Source: Clostridiales bacterium (GTDB taxonomy: Bacteria > Bacillota > Clostridia > Saccharofermentanales > Saccharofermentanaceae). From it: a DNA stretch of 64,000 nucleotides. The stretch is taken from the NCBI GenBank assembly GCA_017617295.1, contig JAFZWN010000084.1, positions 7,142 to 71,141 on the forward strand, in the 5' to 3' direction. The notes under the pieces were generated by a model. That model did no database searches. It was not told where the DNA came from and saw only the letters and a program-made list of their open reading frames with translations. The number at the start of each line of letters is the position of its first letter. The first letter of the stretch is position 1. Position numbers and translations under genes: made by a program. Positions 27,879 through 52,258 of this stretch are shown piece by piece.

Positions 27879-27954
27879 TGGTGGAGACGGGGAGGATCGA
27901 ACTCCTGACCTCTGCAATGCGAATGCAACGCTCTCCCAGCTGAGCTACGCCCCC
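27879..27954 (-). tRNA. tRNA-Ala (anticodon CGC), CCA encoded
   Basis: Hand-folded cloverleaf. Acceptor GGGGGCG/CGUCUCC with the G3:U70 Ala identity pair. D arm GCUC-AGCUGGGA-GAGC. Anticodon arm UUGCA-UUCGCAU-UGCAG. T loop UUCGAUC. 76 nt. Confidence 0.9.
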
Positions 27955-31044: not shown

Positions 31045-31200
31045 CTTAATCGTATCCAAGGCGGGGTGTAAGTCCCCACCGGCGGTGATCCTCCCGCACA
31101 TAGCGGCGCAGGCAAGTCCGCGACTCCCGTAAAATCTTAATGCGGGACTGACTCGGTGAGATTCCGGGACCGACGGTTAAAGTCCGGACGGAAGGAGTTG
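31045..31200 (+). promoter_or_regulatory. FMN riboswitch (RFN element)
   Basis: Conserved RFN blocks GGCGGGGTG.AAGTCCCCACCGGCGGT, AGTCCGCGA and GGTGAGATTCCGGGACCGACGGTTAAAGTCCGGA. The 3' closing strand runs into the SD GGAAGGAG of the next gene. Confidence 0.9.
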
Positions 31201-31207
31201 TTTTTTT

Positions 31208-39179: not shown

Positions 39180-39254
39180 GCCTCTATAGTTTAATGGATA
39201 GAACAGCAGTTTCCGGTACTGCTGGTACGGGTTCGATTCCTGTTGGAGGCGCCA
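39180..39254 (+). tRNA. tRNA-Arg (anticodon CCG), CCA encoded
   Basis: Hand-folded. Acceptor GCCUCUA/UGGAGGC. D loop AAUGGAUA. Anticodon arm GCAGU-UUCCGGU-ACUGC. T arm ACGGG-UUCGAUU-CCUGU. 75 nt. Confidence 0.88.
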
Positions 39255-46526: not shown

Positions 46527-47780
46527 TCATCCTTTTCTTGCTGCCTTTTTGAGTTTCCATTCAGGGACCTGATCGTCTGTCGCCTTGAAGTTATAGACCG
46601 GTCTTAAGACCTCGATGATATCGACCGATCCTCTTACGACATCGATGATGTCTTCGAGGGATTTGTATGCCATCGGAGATTCGTCGATCGTGCTCTCGCA
46701 GACCGATGTCGAGTAGATCCCTTCCATCGATCTGATGAAGTCTTCGAGAAGTACCGTGGCCTTGGCTTTTGTCCTCGACATCACTCTTCCCGCGCCGTGG
46801 GGAGCGGAATAGTTCCATTCGGGATTTCCCTTGCCGTACGCCAGGATGGATCCGTCTCTCATGTTGATCGGGATCAGGACTTTTTCCCCTTCGTGTGCCG
46901 CGATGGCACCCTTTCTGAGGATCATCTCGTCCGTATCGATATAGTTATGGACTGTGTGAAAGGATTCTGCTGCTTTAAGTCCGCTCTTATCGAGGATGAT
47001 CTCCGCCATCAGTTCCCTGTTCCTTCTGGCATATCTCTGGCAGATCTTTACATCGTGGAGGTAGTCCTCCATGTAGGTGCCGTAGAGCCAGCAGAGATCT
47101 TCGGGGTAGGCCGCGGACGTCTTCTCATATTCCGCCGCCAATGCCTTCAGAGCGGGCTGGATCTCGGATCTTCTGCCCTGTTCTTTATAGTTCCTGATGA
47201 TCTCTTCTCTTTTTTGGAAGTACTCTTCCTTGCCGCTTTGAAGATCGACCGCGAGAGACTGGTAGATATCGGCCACCTGCTTGCCCAGGTTCCTGCTGCC
47301 GGAGTGGATAACGAGATAGAGTGTCCCGTCTTCCGCTCTGTCGATCTCGATAAAGTGGTTGCCTCCGCCCAGAGTCCCGAGGGATCTGATAAGTCTCCTT
47401 GTATCCTTGAGCTGTCTGAAGCACTTGAGCTCCGAGATATCGAAGTTCTCTTTTCTGCCTTCCCATACGGACTTGCCGGAGGGGATACTGTGGCATACGG
47501 TATCAAAGGCTTCAAGATCGATCTCTTTGACATCAAGCTTAACCGTATACATCCCGCAGCCGATGTCGACACCGACGACGTTAGGGACTACCTTGTCCTT
47601 AACGGTCATCGTGGTGCCGATCGTGCAGCCTGTTCCCGTATGGACATCGGGCATGATCCTTACTTTACATCCTTCCGTGAAGGGCGTATCGAGCATCCCT
47701 TTGATCTGCTCGACCGCTTCGTCTTCACAGACTTTGGCGTAGCATACCGCCTGATTGTATTTTCCTTCAATAGTAAACAT
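46527..47780 (-). CDS. rtcB: RNA 3'-phosphate/2',3'-cyclic-phosphate ligase RtcB
   Basis: 417 aa. Motifs GGGNHFIE, HSGSRNLG and APHGAGR. SD GAGGAG upstream. 18 nt after the SPFH gene. Confidence 0.92.
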   Translation of the reverse strand: MFTIEGKYNQAVCYAKVCEDEAVEQIKGMLDTPFTEGCKVRIMPDVHTGTGCTIGTTMTVKDKVVPNVVGVDIGCGMYTVKLDVKEIDLEAFDTVCHSIPSGKSVWEGRKENFDISELKCFRQLKDTRRLIRSLGTLGGGNHFIEIDRAEDGTLYLVIHSGSRNLGKQVADIYQSLAVDLQSGKEEYFQKREEIIRNYKEQGRRSEIQPALKALAAEYEKTSAAYPEDLCWLYGTYMEDYLHDVKICQRYARRNRELMAEIILDKSGLKAAESFHTVHNYIDTDEMILRKGAIAAHEGEKVLIPINMRDGSILAYGKGNPEWNYSAPHGAGRVMSRTKAKATVLLEDFIRSMEGIYSTSVCESTIDESPMAYKSLEDIIDVVRGSVDIIEVLRPVYNFKATDDQVPEWKLKKAARKG

Positions 47781-47798: not shown

Positions 47799-48902
47799 TT
47801 ATGTCTTTCCGGAAGAGATGAGCTGTGTCAGACGCTCGAGGATATCCCCCGAACCGCCTACGTTGAGGCTTCCGACATTCTCGCAGATCCTCTCCACGTA
47901 TTCGAGCTCCTTGAGCTTATAGAGTGTGGGATTCTCTTCCATGAGCTTTGCCGTGTTAAGAAGCGACCTCGTGGAGGCGACTTCCTCACGTCTTGTTATT
48001 ACGTTGGCCTGAGCCTTTTTCTCGGCTATAAGGACAGTGCTCATTATGTCCCTTACCGCGCCGGGGAGGATGATGTCCCTGACGCCGCAGTCCGTAACTT
48101 CGATATGATATCCGGCGCACTTTTCCTTCATCTTGCCGAAAACAAACTCAGATATACCGTCCTTGTCTTCGAGGATCTGGTCGAGCTTCTGCCTGCCGAC
48201 TATCTCACGGAGAGCCATCTGGGCGACCTGATGCATATAGGCGTTATAATCGGCGAGTGACTCATAAAGAGCCGCGGCGTCGGTTATCCTGTAGTTCAGG
48301 ACGAAGTTGACCCTCAGGGGGACCTTATCGGCCGTGAGTATCTCCTGACCGAGTATGTTCATGGGGATGAGCCTTGTGTCGACGAGCTGTACCTCGACGG
48401 TCTTCTCGGTCCTCCAGAAATAGTGGTCGCCGGGCTGAAGCTCTCTTACGAGCCTGCCGTTTATATAGAGAAGCCCGATCATGAACTTGTCTATGGAATA
48501 GAGCTCGTAGAGGTCGGGATCGATCCTCTCGAAGAGATATCCGGGGAAGTCGGGGGACACTTCTTCCGTGAGGTCGAAAGTATCGAACCCGTTAACTCCG
48601 GCATCCTTTCTGAAAGCGTGCTTTCCGGGCGTACATATGATGCGGTCGAACTTACCGTCGACTGTTCTGATGCAGAGCTGATTATCGAGCAGTTCGATGA
48701 TATCGAAAGCCTCGTTCATGCGTGCATCATGAAGCAGAGTATCTGTAGCGGCTCTCTCCGATACGAGCTCACCCGTGATATCGTGTATCTCTATCTCCTT
48801 TCGTCCCGTGACGAAATATCTGCCGGCATTTACCATCTTTACGAATCTGCCGTCCCTGAACATTAATCCGTACTGTCTTTCGTTAATTACTACTGTTTTC
48901 AT
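47799..48902 (-). CDS. SPFH/band-7 (stomatin/slipin-like) protein with ~170-aa N-terminal extension
   Basis: The C-terminal half is typical SPFH (..LTADKVPLRVNFVLNYRI..ALREIVG..LDQIL..R....V..). GGAGGA lies 7 nt upstream of ATG 48902, and the track ATG 48917 overlaps that SD. Confidence 0.8.
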   Translation of the reverse strand: MKTVVINERQYGLMFRDGRFVKMVNAGRYFVTGRKEIEIHDITGELVSERAATDTLLHDARMNEAFDIIELLDNQLCIRTVDGKFDRIICTPGKHAFRKDAGVNGFDTFDLTEEVSPDFPGYLFERIDPDLYELYSIDKFMIGLLYINGRLVRELQPGDHYFWRTEKTVEVQLVDTRLIPMNILGQEILTADKVPLRVNFVLNYRITDAAALYESLADYNAYMHQVAQMALREIVGRQKLDQILEDKDGISEFVFGKMKEKCAGYHIEVTDCGVRDIILPGAVRDIMSTVLIAEKKAQANVITRREEVASTRSLLNTAKLMEENPTLYKLKELEYVERICENVGSLNVGGSGDILERLTQLISSGKT

Positions 48903-49319
48903 ATATCTTTCCTCCATTAAGAGTTGTTATCTGATAGGGCCTCCCGTACCGGGTAAAGCGGCCGGTATCTTCAGCCTGTACCTCCCGAAGCGGAAACGGT
49001 CACCGTTCTGGCTTACGGTTCGTATCAGGCGGTATCCGTTACCGGACATGTCTTTAAGCGGTACTGCAGTTGCCTGCGCGGGCGGCCTGTTCTTTGATCT
49101 TTACAGATCTGAAACTGAAACCTACGGATTCGAACCGCTTTCTTAACGCTTTTGAGACGTCGTTGATTACCACTTCGTTTCACATACCGTGCTTTTCTGA
49201 AACACCCGCAGAGGAACCTCCCGGAGCAGCGGTGACTTTGACGAATCACCTGCAGGTCTGATCCACGTGCTCATGATAACGGACACGTTTTATGTAATCA
49301 CGGAAAAAAAGTTGCGAGA

Positions 49320-50228
49320 TCAGTTTTCGAAGAGGACAGACTGTTTCCTGATGCGGTCTCTCATGAGATCGATAAATGCATCGGGGGATGTGACCCTTAT
49401 CATCGGACCGAAAGACAGAAGCCGGATAAGAAGCTCCGTCTCGTCGTCCTTGTCATAGCACAGGGTGACTTCGTAAGTGCTCTTTCCGGTCCTCTTGACT
49501 TCCTTCTGAAGGTGCGAGAAATGAAACATCACGCGCTCGAGGGCGTTCCTGGTATCGCGGAGCGTGAAGGTCACCTTTCTGTCGTTTTTATAAGGAGCAG
49601 GCTTGCGCGTGACGGACTCGTCTGTATCGGCAATACTCTTTATGCGGTTGATATTGACTACGCGTGGACCGTCGGCACACATACCGACCGCTCTGAACTT
49701 ATCGTCCTTCTCGGAATATTCCAGCATGTCAGGACGGAAGACTATCCTTCCCGTCCTGCCCCTTCCCGATGATGAGACTATCTCCAGAGTCTTCTTATTC
49801 CTTACCGCATCAAGTACCCGGCGGAAGTTTTCGATATATGAGGGATCGGTAAACGGGTCGCCGTCGGCGTAACTGTCGTAGACATCGTAGTCATCGGAGG
49901 TGAAAAGAGGAGGGACGTCTTCGAGTCCTTCTATGGTCTCTCCGAACAGCATGAATCTCGGATCGAGAGTGACGGATCGAAGCCACATTTTCTGCAATGT
50001 CGTAAGAGGCATCGAGGGCTCTTTGGTGACCGGTGTCGTGCCGTCCTTACGGATCAGCTTATACTCTTCCTCGCGGAACGCTCTTTGTAATGCCAAAGCC
50101 GTCTCGGCGAATCCTTTTGCCTTCGATATCCGCACTATGTCGGATGAAGTCACGGGGCGTCTGACCGCGATCTTCAGAAGATCGGCCACGCAGTTATAGT
50201 ATGCGCCGTAAAGTTCACTGAACAGCAT
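49320..50228 (-). CDS. WYL-domain regulator-like protein (paralogue 2)
   Basis: 302 aa. Starts MLFSELYGAYY. WYL-like strand ..RPDMLEYSEKDDKFRAVGMC....RVVNINRIKSI. WCX-like C-terminus ..YEVTLCYDKDDETELLIRLLSFGPMIRV. 14-nt overlap with paralogue 1. Confidence 0.6.
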   Translation of the reverse strand: MLFSELYGAYYNCVADLLKIAVRRPVTSSDIVRISKAKGFAETALALQRAFREEEYKLIRKDGTTPVTKEPSMPLTTLQKMWLRSVTLDPRFMLFGETIEGLEDVPPLFTSDDYDVYDSYADGDPFTDPSYIENFRRVLDAVRNKKTLEIVSSSGRGRTGRIVFRPDMLEYSEKDDKFRAVGMCADGPRVVNINRIKSIADTDESVTRKPAPYKNDRKVTFTLRDTRNALERVMFHFSHLQKEVKRTGKSTYEVTLCYDKDDETELLIRLLSFGPMIRVTSPDAFIDLMRDRIRKQSVLFEN

Positions 50229-51441
50229 CCGGGCCTCCTTCGTAAAGCGAATACATAGCGGTCAGGTCATCCCTGAACTGCTGCTCTGTCCTTTTGTTAC
50301 TGAAACTGATACGGACGATCCTTCCGATAAAGGTCCTGATCCACGGGATCAGTTCGCTGCAATCATAGACATCCGCTTCGAACCTTGCCAGACCGTCCTC
50401 TATAACGGTCACTTTACCGCAGCGTTTCTCGCGCTGAAGCCTTGCCGGGATATGTTCCTCGAACCTGCCGTAACGCACGTCGAATTCGACATGCTCGATG
50501 TGATCTCCGACGGTCACGCCCCAGATATTCTTTTCCATGCTCTGAAGCTTTTTCCGCGCTCCGGGAAGAAGATCGGTCTGTCCGGTAATACTTATCTTCG
50601 TTATGTGATCGATACGGCACGAGATCATCCTGGCGCGCTTTAATGAGAATGCCAGAAGATGCTGTCTGGCACCCTGTGAACTGATCTTGACCTTAAGTGG
50701 GATCAGTTCTGATGTATTGGTGCCGCCTCTTCTGCTCTCGGTGGTGACTGTCAGAATGCCGTTTTCCCTCATCGCCGTAAAGATAGTAAGCATGACTTCG
50801 CTGTCCATCGTGCCGGTTATATAGTGGTGCTTGAAGCGGAACAGGGGATCGGACGGATCGAGCTTATCCTCGATAAAGGAACCGATGACTCCGCAGGGCA
50901 TGACTTCACTAAAGAACCTCAGAAGATCCTTCGAGGGAAGGGGAGTCTTCGGGCACATCTTATAGTACACGGTACGGCCTTCCCTGCGGCTTACGATAAG
51001 CCCTTCCTGCTCATATTCCCGAAGTTTCTTACGGACTGTGGATTCGTCATAAACACGAGCTTCGCAGAATCCTTCCGAATATCTGTCTATGGAATCGGTT
51101 ATCTGTTTAAGAGTGAGTTCGGAAGCTTCTTCGAGGATATCGAAAAGGATAAAATGCAGCGTGATGTCGCCGTCGGTGAAGCTCTTGGCCTTCCATGATT
51201 TAAACAGGGGATTCGGGCCCTCCTGGCGGCTGTCCATCGAGATGAATACTGTCTTGCCGTCAGAAGTATTCCGGAAAGACATGGACTCCAGAAGCCAGCT
51301 CTCGATCCTTCTTCTGGAATCGTCGTAGCTCCTGGCGCTCTTGTTCGTATATTCGTCCCGGCTCTTGAAGCCGTAGACATAGAACTCGCGCATGTATTCG
51401 CGGATATTATCGTAGTTCTTGATCAGTTCACTGTACGGCAT
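50215..51441 (-). CDS. WYL-domain transcriptional regulator-like protein (paralogue 1)
   Basis: wHTH (LTLKQITDSI). WYL-like ..IPLKVKISSQGARQHLLAFSLKRARMISCRIDHI. WCX-like tail. Start chosen at Met14 (MPYSELIKNY) by analogy with the paralogue. The track ATG is at 51480. Confidence 0.6.
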   Translation of the reverse strand: MPYSELIKNYDNIREYMREFYVYGFKSRDEYTNKSARSYDDSRRRIESWLLESMSFRNTSDGKTVFISMDSRQEGPNPLFKSWKAKSFTDGDITLHFILFDILEEASELTLKQITDSIDRYSEGFCEARVYDESTVRKKLREYEQEGLIVSRREGRTVYYKMCPKTPLPSKDLLRFFSEVMPCGVIGSFIEDKLDPSDPLFRFKHHYITGTMDSEVMLTIFTAMRENGILTVTTESRRGGTNTSELIPLKVKISSQGARQHLLAFSLKRARMISCRIDHITKISITGQTDLLPGARKKLQSMEKNIWGVTVGDHIEHVEFDVRYGRFEEHIPARLQREKRCGKVTVIEDGLARFEADVYDCSELIPWIRTFIGRIVRISFSNKRTEQQFRDDLTAMYSLYEGGPDAVQ

Positions 51442-52258
51442 AGGCTTTCTCGAGGAATCCGGCGACGCTGTCTTCTTCATTGCTCCCGATAACGCCCGTG
51501 GCGGCCTTCTTCGCCTCGGGGAGGGCGTTACTTACCGCATAGGATTCGTCCGCGGCAGCAAACATCGGGAGGTCATTTACCGAGTCTCCGAAAACGACGA
51601 GCCTGTCGAATCCGTATCTCTCCTTGAGCTTCAGAAGGGCTTTGGCCTTGGTGCTGTTACCCGGGCAGATCTCGAGCCAGAATTCCTTGTCGTAGGCGTC
51701 CTTTTGAAATACGCACTCCCATCCGGGATAAGCCTTTACGCGCTCGTAAGCGGGGCGGAGGGCTTCCTCATCGTCGATCAGTGTGAGATACCCGACCTGA
51801 CCGCTGAACATCTCGTCTTTCGTATCCGTGAAGTACATCCTCTTATCGCCCGCGTGATCGTCTATATACTTCTGAAAGCCGGTGACATGGTCACTTTTCA
51901 GACAGACTTTTTCCATACTGTTTCCGACATATCTCGAGACGAATCCGCACTTAGCGGTCTCGGGGAGAAGTTCTCTCAGAAGTGCGACCTCTTCGGAGGT
52001 GAAGAGCGCCTTCTCGAGCATCTCTCCCGTACTGTTGTCGGCCAGTACCGTCCCGTTTCGCGAGATCACGGGGAGCTTCAGCTCGAGACTTCCGCATATC
52101 TCCATCGAGCTCTGTATCGATCTGGCCGTGGCATAGGTAAAGGCCAGACCTTCTCTTACCAGACGGTTTATCGTACTGACGGTGTAATCCGACAGGGTCT
52201 TGTCGTTTCTCATCAGGGTCCCGTCCAGATCCGATACGTAAAGTGTTCTTTTTTCCAT
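51428..52258 (-). CDS. Cof-type HAD-IIB phosphatase
   Basis: 276 aa. Motif I YVSDLDGTLM. Motif IV FGDSVNDLPMF. Confidence 0.85.
   Translation of the reverse strand: MEKRTLYVSDLDGTLMRNDKTLSDYTVSTINRLVREGLAFTYATARSIQSSMEICGSLELKLPVISRNGTVLADNSTGEMLEKALFTSEEVALLRELLPETAKCGFVSRYVGNSMEKVCLKSDHVTGFQKYIDDHAGDKRMYFTDTKDEMFSGQVGYLTLIDDEEALRPAYERVKAYPGWECVFQKDAYDKEFWLEICPGNSTKAKALLKLKERYGFDRLVVFGDSVNDLPMFAAADESYAVSNALPEAKKAATGVIGSNEEDSVAGFLEKAYAVQ

What the first reader, a model, noticed from the sequence alone, without database searches (positions are those of the whole stretch)
49116..49182. 67-nt tRNA-like element (perfect T-loop, acceptor-like stem) in the non-coding gap upstream of SPFH-rtcB
The minus strand reads TGAAACGAAGTGGTAATCAACGACGTCTCAAAAGCGTTAAGAAAGCGGTTCGAATCCGTAGGTTTCA. 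It contains the canonical T-arm core GCGG-TTCGAAT-CCGT (GGTTCGAATCC at 49136-49126). The ends TGAAAC/GTTTCA form a 6-bp acceptor-like stem placed exactly as in a tRNA. A D-region-like GTGGTAA is present. The anticodon arm is only a weak, non-canonical 4-bp stem (GACG..CGTT) with a 9-nt loop, so it is not a functional tRNA gene. Established: in Salmonella and many other bacteria, rtcB operons carry Y-RNA-like genes (YrlA) whose distinctive feature is a tRNA-mimicking domain, and damaged tRNA is the inducing signal for the Rtc system. Inference: this could be a tRNA-mimic decoy, sensor or substrate RNA, or a cis element, tied to RtcB. No Rsr/Ro gene is present, which would make it a Ro-independent variant.
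Basis: partly seen in the sequence, partly recalled or inferred. Interest (0 to 1): 0.72.

Follow-up and report, generated by a model that had tools for sequence, protein, structure and literature searches.

The report
tRNA-like leader RNA before slipin–RtcB
The 67-base tRNA look-alike is real and conserved, and it is one module of a roughly 350-base structured RNA made with a membrane-scaffold protein (slipin) and the RNA-repair ligase RtcB, a class already predicted by computer in 2016 but never tested.

Summary
The sequence is exactly as described, but alone it is weak: Rfam tRNA 18 bits (cut-off 29), no ARAGORN call, folding z about 0. Comparison makes it real. A T-arm lies on the sense strand within 700 nt upstream of slipin in 58 of 77 species-level loci, against 0 antisense and 0.018 expected, and its stem covaries.

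The element is the middle of a conserved leader filling the whole 402-nt gap. Its parts are an invariant box CGCAACTTTTTTTCCGTGA after two PafBC-like WYL regulator genes, a 5' domain holding the tRNA-like module, and a 128-nt 3' domain. The 3' domain covaries strongly, matches no Rfam family, and occurs in 76 of 90 sources, always just before the slipin start.

[quoted passage not shown] It is not a tRNA gene and not Rfam YrlA.

The 6-bp acceptor stem is not conserved in relatives.

Most likely it is the tRNA-mimic module of an operon-encoded RNA cofactor, analogous to Y RNA with Ro. A cis-acting sensor or decoy role is not excluded. It is a new member of a known, unvalidated kind. The 3' domain and regulator box may be new.

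The parts
50215..51480 (-). WYL-domain regulator, 421 aa (wHTH + WYL + weak WCX), first of a PafB/PafC-like pair
   Evidence: The window protein has no Pfam hit above threshold. It gives weak wHTH and WCX signals. 22 of 24 orthologues match Pfam WYL, best E 8e-9. A profile gives weak PDB hits to PafC/PafBC and ArsR-type HTH proteins. It is conserved next to the 302-aa gene in 55 of 90 loci.
49320..50228 (-). Second WYL/WCX-type regulator, 302 aa, overlapping the stop of the first gene
   Evidence: WCX domain, E 2.6e-4. 18 of 27 orthologues match WCX and 3 match WYL. Weak PDB profile hits to PafBC and BrxR. Present in 60 of 90 loci.
49298..49316 (-). Invariant box CGCAACTTTTTTTCCGTGA, a presumed operator and -35 region, starting 4 nt after the regulator stop codon
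   Evidence: TTTTTTTCC[G/A]TGA lies at this position in about 60 loci. It is invariant in the close relatives. It is the only match in the window even with 3 mismatches. The same box heads Ro-like/RtcB cassettes in L215 and L216. The operator function is inferred.
49273..49278 (-). -10-like hexamer TATCAT, 19 nt after the box. The transcript start is inferred near 49266.
   Evidence: Read from the sequence. Relatives have TAAAAT, TATACT or TATCAT at the same place. The consensus sigma-70 scan found no full promoter, so this is an inference.
49183..49250 (-). 5' part of the leader: hairpin P2 (GGTGA 49246-49250 with TCACC 49231-49235) and a divergent P3 region ending in the CGGTATG motif (49183-49189)
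   Evidence: P2 and P3 covary in 39 leaders. The P3 position R107/Y129 shows AU:17, GC:16, CG:5. The window copy of P3 carries an insertion. The assignment of its 3' strand to CGGTATG (49183-49189) is by eye.
49116..49182 (-). The finding: the tRNA-like module. It holds acceptor-like TGAAAC/GTTTCA, D-loop-like GTGGTAA (49167-49173), an anticodon-like arm (49145-49161, loop CUCAAAA) and a T-arm (49124-49138).
   Evidence: Rfam tRNA 18 bits over the full model length. The relative L085 scores 24.1 bits. Relaxed ARAGORN calls L081, L082 and L085 as tRNA-Leu(CAA). The T-arm covaries. The arm stem covaries and the loop is invariant in the window's clade. The acceptor stem is not conserved.
49096..49109 (-). 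Small hairpin GATC-UGUAAA-GATC. Relatives have GATC-CUGUAAA-GATC or TCGA-CUGUUAA-TCGA, which are GUA/GUU anticodon-loop look-alikes.
   Evidence: Alignments. Hairpins with a 7-nt loop YUGUNAN occur in 16 of 51 leaders, against 0-2 in shuffles and 3 in the reverse complement. The window copy has a 6-nt loop.
49069..49095 (-). C-rich linker (…GGCCGCCCGCGCAGGC…) between the two domains
   Evidence: CCCRCGCC is conserved in the window's clade. No structure is assigned.
48941..49068 (-). 3' domain of the leader, a multi-helix structured RNA with invariant GGAUACCG, CU.AA and GCCGC, ending about 25 nt before the slipin Shine-Dalgarno
   Evidence: Covariance model R1 scores it at 72.2 bits. R1 matches 76 of 90 sources, all sense and just upstream of slipin. 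90.4% of cells are paired against 30-46% when slid, with 586 compensatory cells against 87-163. No Rfam family matches.
47799..48902 (-). Slipin (SPFH/Band-7) gene. The likely start is ATG 48900-48902, with GGAGG at 48911-48915. The mechanical ORF starts at 48917.
   Evidence: Pfam Band_7, E 2.9e-32. The 99% relative is 367 aa. Sequence read.
46527..47780 (-). RtcB RNA ligase gene
   Evidence: Pfam RtcB, E 5.7e-61. NCBIfam RtcB models match but score below their curated cut-offs (best 151.7 bits against 407).

Best explanation
Identity (shown). The 67-nt element is the tRNA-mimicking module of a conserved, structured leader RNA of about 350 nt.
- The module has a T-arm, a GG-containing D-loop-like motif that could form a tRNA 'elbow' with the T-loop, and an anticodon-like hairpin.
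- The leader follows an invariant box next to two PafBC-like WYL regulator genes.
- The leader appears to be transcribed with slipin and rtcB, because no terminator intervenes.

Mechanism (inferred). I read the leader as a bipartite operon-encoded RNA cofactor, the slipin counterpart of Y RNA/YrlA in Ro(Rsr)-RtcB operons.
- The 3' domain, which travels strictly with slipin, would be the slipin-linked module. It could bind the protein or control slipin translation.
- The tRNA-like module would present a tRNA shape to proteins that recognise tRNA, such as RtcB, tRNA-processing or modifying enzymes, or tRNA-cutting toxins. This would bring RNA repair and its substrates together at the slipin scaffold.
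- Induction would come through the WYL pair, which senses a damage signal.
For: Conservation with slipin:
- A T-arm lies sense-strand upstream of slipin in 58 of 77 loci, with 0 antisense and a background of 0.018 per 700 nt.
- The whole gap is homologous in more than 55 loci.
- There are 40 covarying pairs in 8 helices, 91.3% paired against 35-49% in slid controls.

Resemblance to tRNA:
- Rfam tRNA model: 18 bits for the window, 24 bits for L085, and 48-49 bits, above the cut-off, for the elements in L215 and L216.
- Relaxed ARAGORN of 52 leaders.
- In the wider family the order is T-arm, closed acceptor-like hairpin, then D-arm, as in YrlA.

Bipartite logic:
- The 3' domain is in 76 of 90 sources and always just before slipin. 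It is absent from the two slipin-less cassettes that have the same box and regulators.
- In one of those (L215), Y-RNA-like modules that include a tRNA-like element precede a DUF2828/vWA protein and RtcB.

Transcription and regulation:
- No consistent intrinsic terminator lies between the RNA and slipin.
- The regulators are WYL proteins.

Literature:
- b7a-tRNA next to Band-7 and RtcB was predicted but not validated, and was proposed as redundant with YrlA.
- The YrlA tRNA-like domain folds like tRNA.
- rtcB, a slipin gene and a tRNA operon are co-regulated under translational stress in Anabaena (PMC10272220).
Against: - There is no expression, processing or binding data of any kind.
- The window's own copy is a poor tRNA. 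It has no D-stem, a 4-bp T-stem, and an acceptor stem that is not conserved.
- Folding energy is no better than shuffles.
- The architecture of the tRNA-like part varies between lineages, with one or two T-arms and canonical or permuted order. The common denominator is little more than the T-arm and a GG motif.
- The position in a 5' leader directly before the ribosome-binding site fits a cis-regulatory role equally well.
- RtcB is absent next to slipin in about 40% of loci.
- The original paper defining b7a-tRNA could not be read.
Confidence: 0.5

Rival explanations
1. Cis-acting sensor or bait. The leader is a riboregulator of slipin-rtcB. Its anticodon-like loops would be cut by the same anticodon nucleases that damage cellular tRNAs, or would bind a tRNA-recognising factor. 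Cleavage or binding, with possible religation by RtcB, would change the stability or translation of the downstream message. The loops are CUCAAAA in the window and CUGUNAA (Tyr/Asn/Asp/His type) in relatives. The 3' domain would be the expression platform.
For: - The RNA is always in the 5' leader, sense, and ends about 25-40 nt before the slipin ribosome-binding site.
- No terminator separates it from the genes.
- Hairpins with GUN-anticodon-like 7-nt loops are enriched: 16 of 51 leaders against about 1 expected.
- The loop CUCAAAA is invariant in the window's clade.
- Damaged tRNAs are the inducing signal of the RtcR-controlled Rtc operon in Salmonella (PMC7790460).
- Alternative pairings exist. 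TGAAAC has three possible GTTTCA partners in the window. In one subfamily, P3 plus the post-T hairpin compete with an acceptor stem.
Against: - The GUN loops are present in only about a third of leaders, at varying positions. In the window the loop is shortened to 6 nt.
- The closing helix of the 3' domain does not overlap the Shine-Dalgarno.
- No conserved terminator/antiterminator pair was found.
- In Salmonella, YrlA was not cut by the RecA-dependent nuclease that cleaves tRNAs after DNA damage.
- The alternative pairings are not supported by covariation.
Confidence: 0.28
2. A canonical Ro-binding Y RNA (YrlA) whose Ro partner is encoded elsewhere in the genome.
For: - The wider family shows the YrlA order of T-arm, closed acceptor hairpin and D-arm.
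- Some loci (L021, L070) carry a DUF2828 Ro-like gene just upstream of the same box.
Against: - The Rfam YrlA model gives no hit in the window at E <= 10, and only 14.2 bits against a cut-off of 69 in L005.
- No relative of the one Ro-like protein I had as a query (DUF2828 of L215) is in the window.
- The window's clade has the canonical, not the permuted, order.
- The RNA tracks slipin, not Ro.
Confidence: 0.04
3. A decayed tRNA gene, or a tRNA-derived integration-site remnant, with no function.
For: It scores below the tRNA threshold, has no D-stem, and its folding energy is not unusual.
Against: - It has the same position and strand in dozens of species whose slipin is only 40-60% identical.
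- The T-stem and the anticodon-like stem show compensatory changes.
- It is embedded in a covarying larger RNA.
- No integrase or repeat context was seen.
Confidence: 0.02

Closest known systems
[quoted passage not shown]
   Same: A predicted non-coding tRNA-like RNA encoded next to a Band-7/SPFH protein and RtcB, with no Ro. It was proposed as a cofactor redundant with YrlA and has not been validated experimentally. The window has this gene context and a tRNA-like element.
   Different: - The description says the RNA 'strongly resembles an authentic tRNA'. The window's copy is sub-threshold (18 bits) and lacks a D-stem.
- I could not read the original paper. I therefore cannot say whether it also described the 3' domain, the conserved box or the paired WYL regulators.
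YrlA (Rfam RF02553), the tRNA-like Y RNA of rsr-yrlBA-rtcBA operons (Chen et al. 2014, PMC4201824; Wang et al. 2018)
   Same: - It is an operon-encoded ncRNA in an RtcB context.
- Its module mimics the tRNA T-arm, D-arm and acceptor.
- It has a bipartite logic of a protein-binding module plus a tRNA-like module.
- In the wider slipin family the order is also T-arm, closed acceptor hairpin, D-arm.
   Different: - There is no Ro/Rsr gene and no Ro-binding stem.
- The Rfam model does not match: no hit in the window, and 14 bits against 69 in L005.
- The window's clade has the canonical D, anticodon, T order.
- The partner module is a different, slipin-linked 3' domain.
Genuine tRNA (Rfam RF00005)
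   Same: - The T-loop GGTTCGAATCC is perfect.
- It has a 7-nt anticodon-like loop with U33 and a purine at position 37.
- A GG lies in the D-loop position.
- A 6-bp terminal stem is present.
- The model aligns over its full length.
   Different: - It scores 18 bits against the cut-off of 29, and ARAGORN gives no call.
- It has no D-stem, a 4-bp T-stem and no discriminator/CCA context.
- It lies inside an mRNA leader.
- The acceptor stem is not conserved in relatives.
PafBC-type WYL transcription regulators (PDB 6SJ9, 7P5X) and their upstream promoter motif
   Same: Two adjacent paralogous HTH-WYL-WCX genes lie next to a promoter with a strictly conserved upstream box. The family responds to nucleic-acid damage signals, from my own knowledge of PafBC and DriD.
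   Different: - Sequence similarity is only at profile level, E 0.05-0.7.
- The box sequence is different.
- The target here is an RNA-repair cassette rather than a DNA-repair regulon.
- Binding was not tested.

Membership tests
tRNA gene (Rfam RF00005 / ARAGORN) | Score at or above the curated gathering threshold of 29 bits for the cloverleaf model | tested here: not met
   18.0 bits, E = 1.1. The best clade relative scores 24.1 bits.
tRNA gene (Rfam RF00005 / ARAGORN) | Called by a tRNA gene finder, with D-stem, anticodon stem, T-stem and acceptor stem | tested here: not met
   ARAGORN finds only tRNA-Ala and tRNA-Arg in the window. The element is not called even at relaxed thresholds. The D-stem pairs are flagged non-standard.
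YrlA / Y RNA-like (Rfam RF02553) | Match to the family covariance model (gathering score 69 bits) | tested here: not met
   No YrlA hit in window 48600-49700 at E <= 10. L005 of the wider family scores 14.2 bits.
YrlA / Y RNA-like (Rfam RF02553) | Encoded next to Rsr/Ro60 and carrying a Ro-binding stem | tested here: not met
   The neighbours are WYL regulators, slipin and RtcB. The Ro-like DUF2828 protein of L215 has no relative in the window. A canonical TROVE query was not run.
YrlA / Y RNA-like (Rfam RF02553) | Circularly permuted tRNA-like domain: T-arm, then closed acceptor stem-loop, then D-arm | tested here: inconclusive
   This order is seen in the wider slipin family (L005, L069, L071). 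The window's clade has D-like, anticodon-like, T-arm in canonical order, followed by a small hairpin.
[quoted passage not shown] | Predicted ncRNA encoded adjacent to a Band-7/SPFH gene, often with RtcB | tested here: met
   The element lies 214 nt upstream of the slipin start, with RtcB next. The same arrangement holds in 58 of 77 loci and 68 of 72 with looser criteria.
[quoted passage not shown] | 'Strongly resembles an authentic tRNA' (wording of 10.1101/312249) | tested here: inconclusive
   The window has a perfect T-loop and a 5-bp/7-nt anticodon-like arm, but no D-stem and 18 bits. Family members range from 14 bits to 49 bits.
[quoted passage not shown] | Formal definition and alignment in the original paper | not testable with these tools
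   PMC5062991 / 10.1093/nar/gkw722 is not held in the library.
Riboswitch or other curated cis-regulatory RNA (Rfam 15) | Match of the leader, including the 3' domain, to any curated family | tested here: not met
   Nothing at the gathering threshold in the window or in 16 loci. Only chance-level hits at E <= 10.

The most novel reading that the evidence does not exclude
The whole leader would be an undescribed bipartite RNA, a 'Y RNA for slipin'.
- The 3' domain of about 125 nt, which covaries strongly and is absent from Rfam 15, would be a new protein-binding or regulatory motif specific to slipin.
- The variable tRNA-like 5' domain carries exact look-alikes of anticodon loops (CUGUAAA, CUGUUAA, CUGUCAA, UUGUGAA, CUCAAAA). 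These would serve as decoys or sensors for anticodon nucleases of the colicin-E5 type, whose 2',3'-cyclic-phosphate/5'-OH products are what RtcB seals.
- The cassette would be switched on by a PafBC-like WYL pair acting at the box CGCAACTTTTTTTCCGTGA.
Probability: 0.25. Interest if true: 0.8.

Novelty: new member of a known kind. Interest (0 to 1): 0.5.

Why it matters
What bacterial RtcB repairs, and why its operons so often carry tRNA-shaped RNAs, is still open. The Ro/Y-RNA version has been studied experimentally. The slipin version exists only as a 2016 computational prediction.

This locus and its more than 70 relatives give a concrete, testable anatomy:
- a regulator pair with a strictly conserved box;
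- a leader with a tRNA-mimic module;
- a second, strongly covarying domain that travels with slipin.

This allows direct experiments on whether the RNA tethers RtcB or tRNA-binding proteins to a membrane scaffold, or whether it senses tRNA-cutting toxins. The system is common in gut and rumen Clostridia, so it may matter for survival under bacteriocin, phage or antibiotic stress.

Tried and rejected
1. Thermodynamic support. The 67-mer, the 5' domain and the whole gap fold no better than shuffles (z = 0.01, -0.41, -1.23). MFE folds of clade members are mutually inconsistent.
2. Conserved canonical acceptor stem. Only the window and L090 have TGAAAC/GTTTCA. Relatives offer only G-U-rich, shifting pairings. 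A formal pair count on alignment A6 was abandoned because MAFFT misaligns the flanks.
3. More clade members from a metagenome scan with CTCAAAAN{11,15}GGTTCGAATCC. The scan returned 120 contigs, 82 of them genuine tRNAs called Leu(CAA), and no family member.
4. Long-range pairing between the 5' TGCAAGG or GCGGUGC motifs and the 3' domain (CCUUGCC, GGAUACCG). The complementarity exists, but the columns are invariant, so there is no covariation. The window lacks GGUG. I left this open.
5. Intrinsic terminator between the RNA and slipin, which would indicate a separate sRNA. None is consistent (6 of 39 weak sites, mostly the T-arm itself).
6. Reading the original b7a-tRNA paper. It is not held.
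7. Literature search for an RNA motif linked to rtcB or slipin. Nothing was found beyond the Wolin and Aravind papers.
8. Structure prediction of the WYL proteins. Not run, because my alignments hold locus-derived sequences that the tool refuses.

Full report
**1. The observation**

It holds:
- GGTTCGAATCC at 49126-49136;
- TGAAAC (49177-49182) and GTTTCA (49116-49121) at the two ends;
- GTGGTAA at 49167-49173.

The anticodon-like arm is better than described. With G-U pairs it is GACGU/GCGUU (5 bp) around a 7-nt loop CUCAAAA, with U at position 33 and A at position 37.

Taken alone, the element is not convincing:
- The 11-mer is expected 0.11 times per window and occurs once.
- The Rfam tRNA model aligns over its full length but gives 18.0 bits, E = 1.1, against a cut-off of 29.
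- ARAGORN calls only tRNA-Ala (27879-27954) and tRNA-Arg (39180-39254). It does not call the element even at relaxed settings.
- Folding energy equals that of shuffles, z = 0.01.
- GTTTCA occurs three times locally (49198-49203, 49116-49121, 49110-49115), so a 6-bp terminal complement is not improbable.

**2. Context in the window**

On the minus strand the order is as follows:
- a 421-aa protein (50215-51480);
- a 302-aa WCX-domain protein (49320-50228);
- a 402-nt gap;
- slipin/Band-7 (47799-48917 mechanically; the likely start is 48902, behind GGAGG);
- RtcB (46527-47780);
- a Na/Pi-PhoU transporter.

Both upstream proteins belong to the HTH-WYL-WCX type:
- 22 of 24 orthologues of the 421-aa protein match Pfam WYL.
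- 18 of 27 orthologues of the 302-aa protein match WCX.
- Profiles give weak PDB hits to PafB/PafC, BrxR and ArsR-type HTH proteins.

They look like a PafBC-like pair.

**3. Comparative evidence**

Slipin homologues were used to fetch 80 species-level genome loci and 12 metagenomic relatives closer to the window.

The T-arm is conserved with slipin:
- A strict T-arm lies on the sense strand within 700 nt upstream of slipin in 58 of 77 loci. There are none antisense, and the background is 0.018 per 700 nt.
- With a 4-bp stem and 1150 nt of upstream sequence, the count is 68 of 72.

The whole gap, not only the 67 nt, is homologous:
- A profile of the window's clade matches more than 55 loci from the promoter to the slipin start.
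- In a 39-sequence alignment, RNAalifold predicts 40 pairs in 8 helices. 91.3% of cells are paired against 35-49% when partners are slid. There are 317 compensatory cells against 59-85, and 0 of 500 shuffles reach this.
- The T-stem is 97.8% paired, with compensatory change in 4 of 5 pairs.

**4. Anatomy of the leader (window coordinates, minus strand)**

(a) *Box.* CGCAACTTTTTTTCCGTGA (49298-49316) starts four bases after the regulator's stop codon.
- It is invariant in about 60 loci.
- It is unique in the window even with 3 mismatches.
- A -10-like TATCAT (49273-49278) follows it.

(b) *5' domain.* It holds hairpin P2 (49231-49250) and a P3 element that is divergent in the window.

(c) *The tRNA-like module* (49116-49182).
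- In the window's clade (WIN, L081, L082, L085, L086, L089, and partly L212) the order is canonical. A D-loop-like RYGGYAA comes first, then an arm with invariant loop CUCAAAA, then the T-arm.
- The arm's stem covaries: ACGU/GCGU, UUGG/CCAG, UUUGU/ACAAA.
- Relaxed ARAGORN calls L081, L082 and L085 as tRNA-Leu(CAA). Rfam gives L085 24.1 bits.
- The acceptor stem is not conserved.

(d) *Small hairpin* GATC-UGUAAA-GATC (49096-49109).

(e) *C-rich linker* (49069-49095).

(f) *3' domain* (48941-49068).

No intrinsic terminator lies between these parts and slipin, either in the window or consistently in 39 leaders. The RNA is therefore most likely made as the 5' leader of the slipin-rtcB message.

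**5. The 3' domain**

- A covariance model (R1, 123 positions, 24 pairs) finds it in 76 of 90 sources. Every match is on the slipin strand and ends about 40 nt before the slipin start.
- Matches include many loci that were not in the seed, loci without the WYL pair, and Bacteroidota (L063, L075).
- The window scores 72.2 bits.
- On the 76-sequence alignment, 90.4% of cells pair against 30-46% when slid. There are 586 compensatory cells against 87-163.
- Nothing in Rfam 15 matches it.
- No paper in the searchable library links an RNA motif to slipin or rtcB beyond those cited below.
- It is absent from the two cassettes that have the same box and regulators but no slipin (L215, L216).

**6. Variation of the tRNA-like part**

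- In the wider family the T-arm is followed by a strongly covarying closed hairpin and then CGCCAGYGGWUUGG, a D-arm with the GG. This is the circularly permuted order of YrlA.
- The Rfam YrlA model aligns L005 in just that way, but at only 14.2 bits against a cut-off of 69.
- Some leaders have two T-arms.
- Hairpins whose 7-nt loops copy GUN anticodon loops (CUGUCAA, CUGUAAA, CUGUUAA, UUGUGAA) occur in 16 of 51 leaders. Shuffles give 0-2 and the reverse complement gives 3.
- From my own knowledge, GUN anticodons (Asp, Tyr, Asn, His) are the queuosine tRNAs and the targets of colicin E5, whose cleavage products have the ends that RtcB joins. This is a lead, not a result.

**7. Relation to Ro/Y-RNA cassettes**

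- *L215.* The same box and a divergent WYL pair head about 650 nt of five tandem Y-RNA-like modules. One module contains a tRNA-like element of 49.4 bits. A DUF2828+DUF7788 protein with a vWA motif follows, then RtcB. From memory, DUF2828 is a Ro/TROVE-like family.
- *L216.* The same box and WYL pair precede a tRNA-like element of 48.4 bits and RtcB directly.
- *L021 and L070.* These carry the DUF2828 gene just upstream of the box-RNA-slipin unit.
- The window has no relative of that DUF2828 protein.

One regulator and box system therefore drives interchangeable 'tRNA-like RNA + scaffold protein (+ RtcB)' cassettes.

**8. What is known**

- Wang et al. (bioRxiv 10.1101/312249) summarise Burroughs & Aravind (2016). 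[quoted passage not shown] This RNA strongly resembles an authentic tRNA, is proposed to be functionally redundant with YrlA, and has not been validated experimentally. The finding is a member of that class.
- The original paper is not held. I therefore cannot say whether the 3' domain, the box or the WYL pair were described there.
- Supporting context: the YrlA tRNA-like domain folds like tRNA. Damaged tRNAs induce the RtcR-controlled operon in Salmonella. In Anabaena, rtcB, a slipin gene and a tRNA operon share one repressor and respond to translational stress.

**9. Mechanism**

*Shown:*
- a conserved, covarying leader RNA with a tRNA-like module and a slipin-linked 3' domain;
- co-orientation with slipin and absence of terminators;
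- the WYL pair and the conserved box.

*Inferred (confidence about 0.5):*
- The RNA is a bipartite cofactor analogous to Y RNA.
- The 3' domain is linked to slipin.
- The tRNA-like module presents a tRNA elbow and anticodon-like loops to RtcB or other tRNA-recognising proteins at the slipin scaffold.
- The cassette is induced through the WYL regulators.

*Main rival (about 0.28):* a cis-acting sensor or bait, in which cleavage or binding at the tRNA-like module controls slipin-rtcB expression.

*Minor rivals:* canonical YrlA with Ro encoded elsewhere (0.04), and a decayed tRNA (0.02).

**10. Verdict**

- It is a new member of a known but experimentally unvalidated kind.
- The larger structure around it is the more interesting result and may be undescribed. 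That structure is the 3' domain, the regulator box, and the anticodon-loop look-alikes.
- Interest: 0.5.

Noticed in passing
window 48941-49068 (-): A structured RNA domain of about 125 nt sits immediately upstream of slipin. It has invariant GGAUACCG, CU.AA and GCCGC. It is found in 76 of 90 sources, covaries strongly, and matches no Rfam family.
   Followed up: yes
window 49298-49316 (-): The box CGCAACTTTTTTTCCGTGA lies directly after the WYL-regulator stop codon. It is invariant in about 60 loci, and also heads Ro-like/RtcB cassettes on two IMG/VR contigs. It is a likely operator/promoter element.
   Followed up: partly
window 49096-49109 (-); L005:3632-3646, L081, L082, L089 and others: Hairpins whose 7-nt loops copy GUN anticodon loops (Tyr/Asn/Asp/His type) recur in 16 of 51 leaders, against about 1 expected. 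The window copy has a 6-nt loop UGUAAA. They may mimic targets of colicin-E5-type nucleases.
   Followed up: partly
L215:2791-8604 and L216:7681-11478 (IMG/VR contigs): The same WYL pair and box are present, without slipin. L215 has five tandem Y-RNA-like modules, one with a 49-bit tRNA-like element, then a DUF2828/DUF7788 (vWA) protein and RtcB. L216 has a 48-bit tRNA-like element directly before RtcB.
   Followed up: partly
L002:3366-4004, L026:3237-3983 (also L009, L021, L028, L037, L042): A conserved ORF of about 210 aa with no Pfam family is inserted between the leader RNA and slipin in several species.
   Followed up: partly
window 49177-49182 with 49198-49203, 49116-49121 and 49110-49115 (-): TGAAAC has three possible GTTTCA partners, one upstream and two tandem downstream. 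This allows mutually exclusive pairings. It is seen only in the window and its 99% twin, so covariation cannot test it.
   Followed up: no
window 31048-31203 (+): FMN riboswitch, 91.1 bits.
   Followed up: no
window 27879-27954 (-) and 39180-39254 (+): Genuine tRNA-Ala(CGC) and tRNA-Arg(CCG) genes.
   Followed up: no
L094:7520-7600, L095, L098 and about 80 other metagenome contigs: These tRNAs have a class-I shape (5-nt variable loop; several end in CCA) and the anticodon loop CUCAAAA. ARAGORN calls them tRNA-Leu(CAA), yet bacterial tRNA-Leu normally has a long variable arm.
   Followed up: no
L073:2806-3652, L074:960-1400, L065:2889-3217: In Flavobacterium and Marinoscillum the slipin gene is preceded by arrays of genuine tRNA genes (Asn, Arg, Asp, Pro, Tyr, Leu) plus extra T-arm elements. 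The Clostridial leader is absent there: model R1 finds no 3' domain.
   Followed up: no
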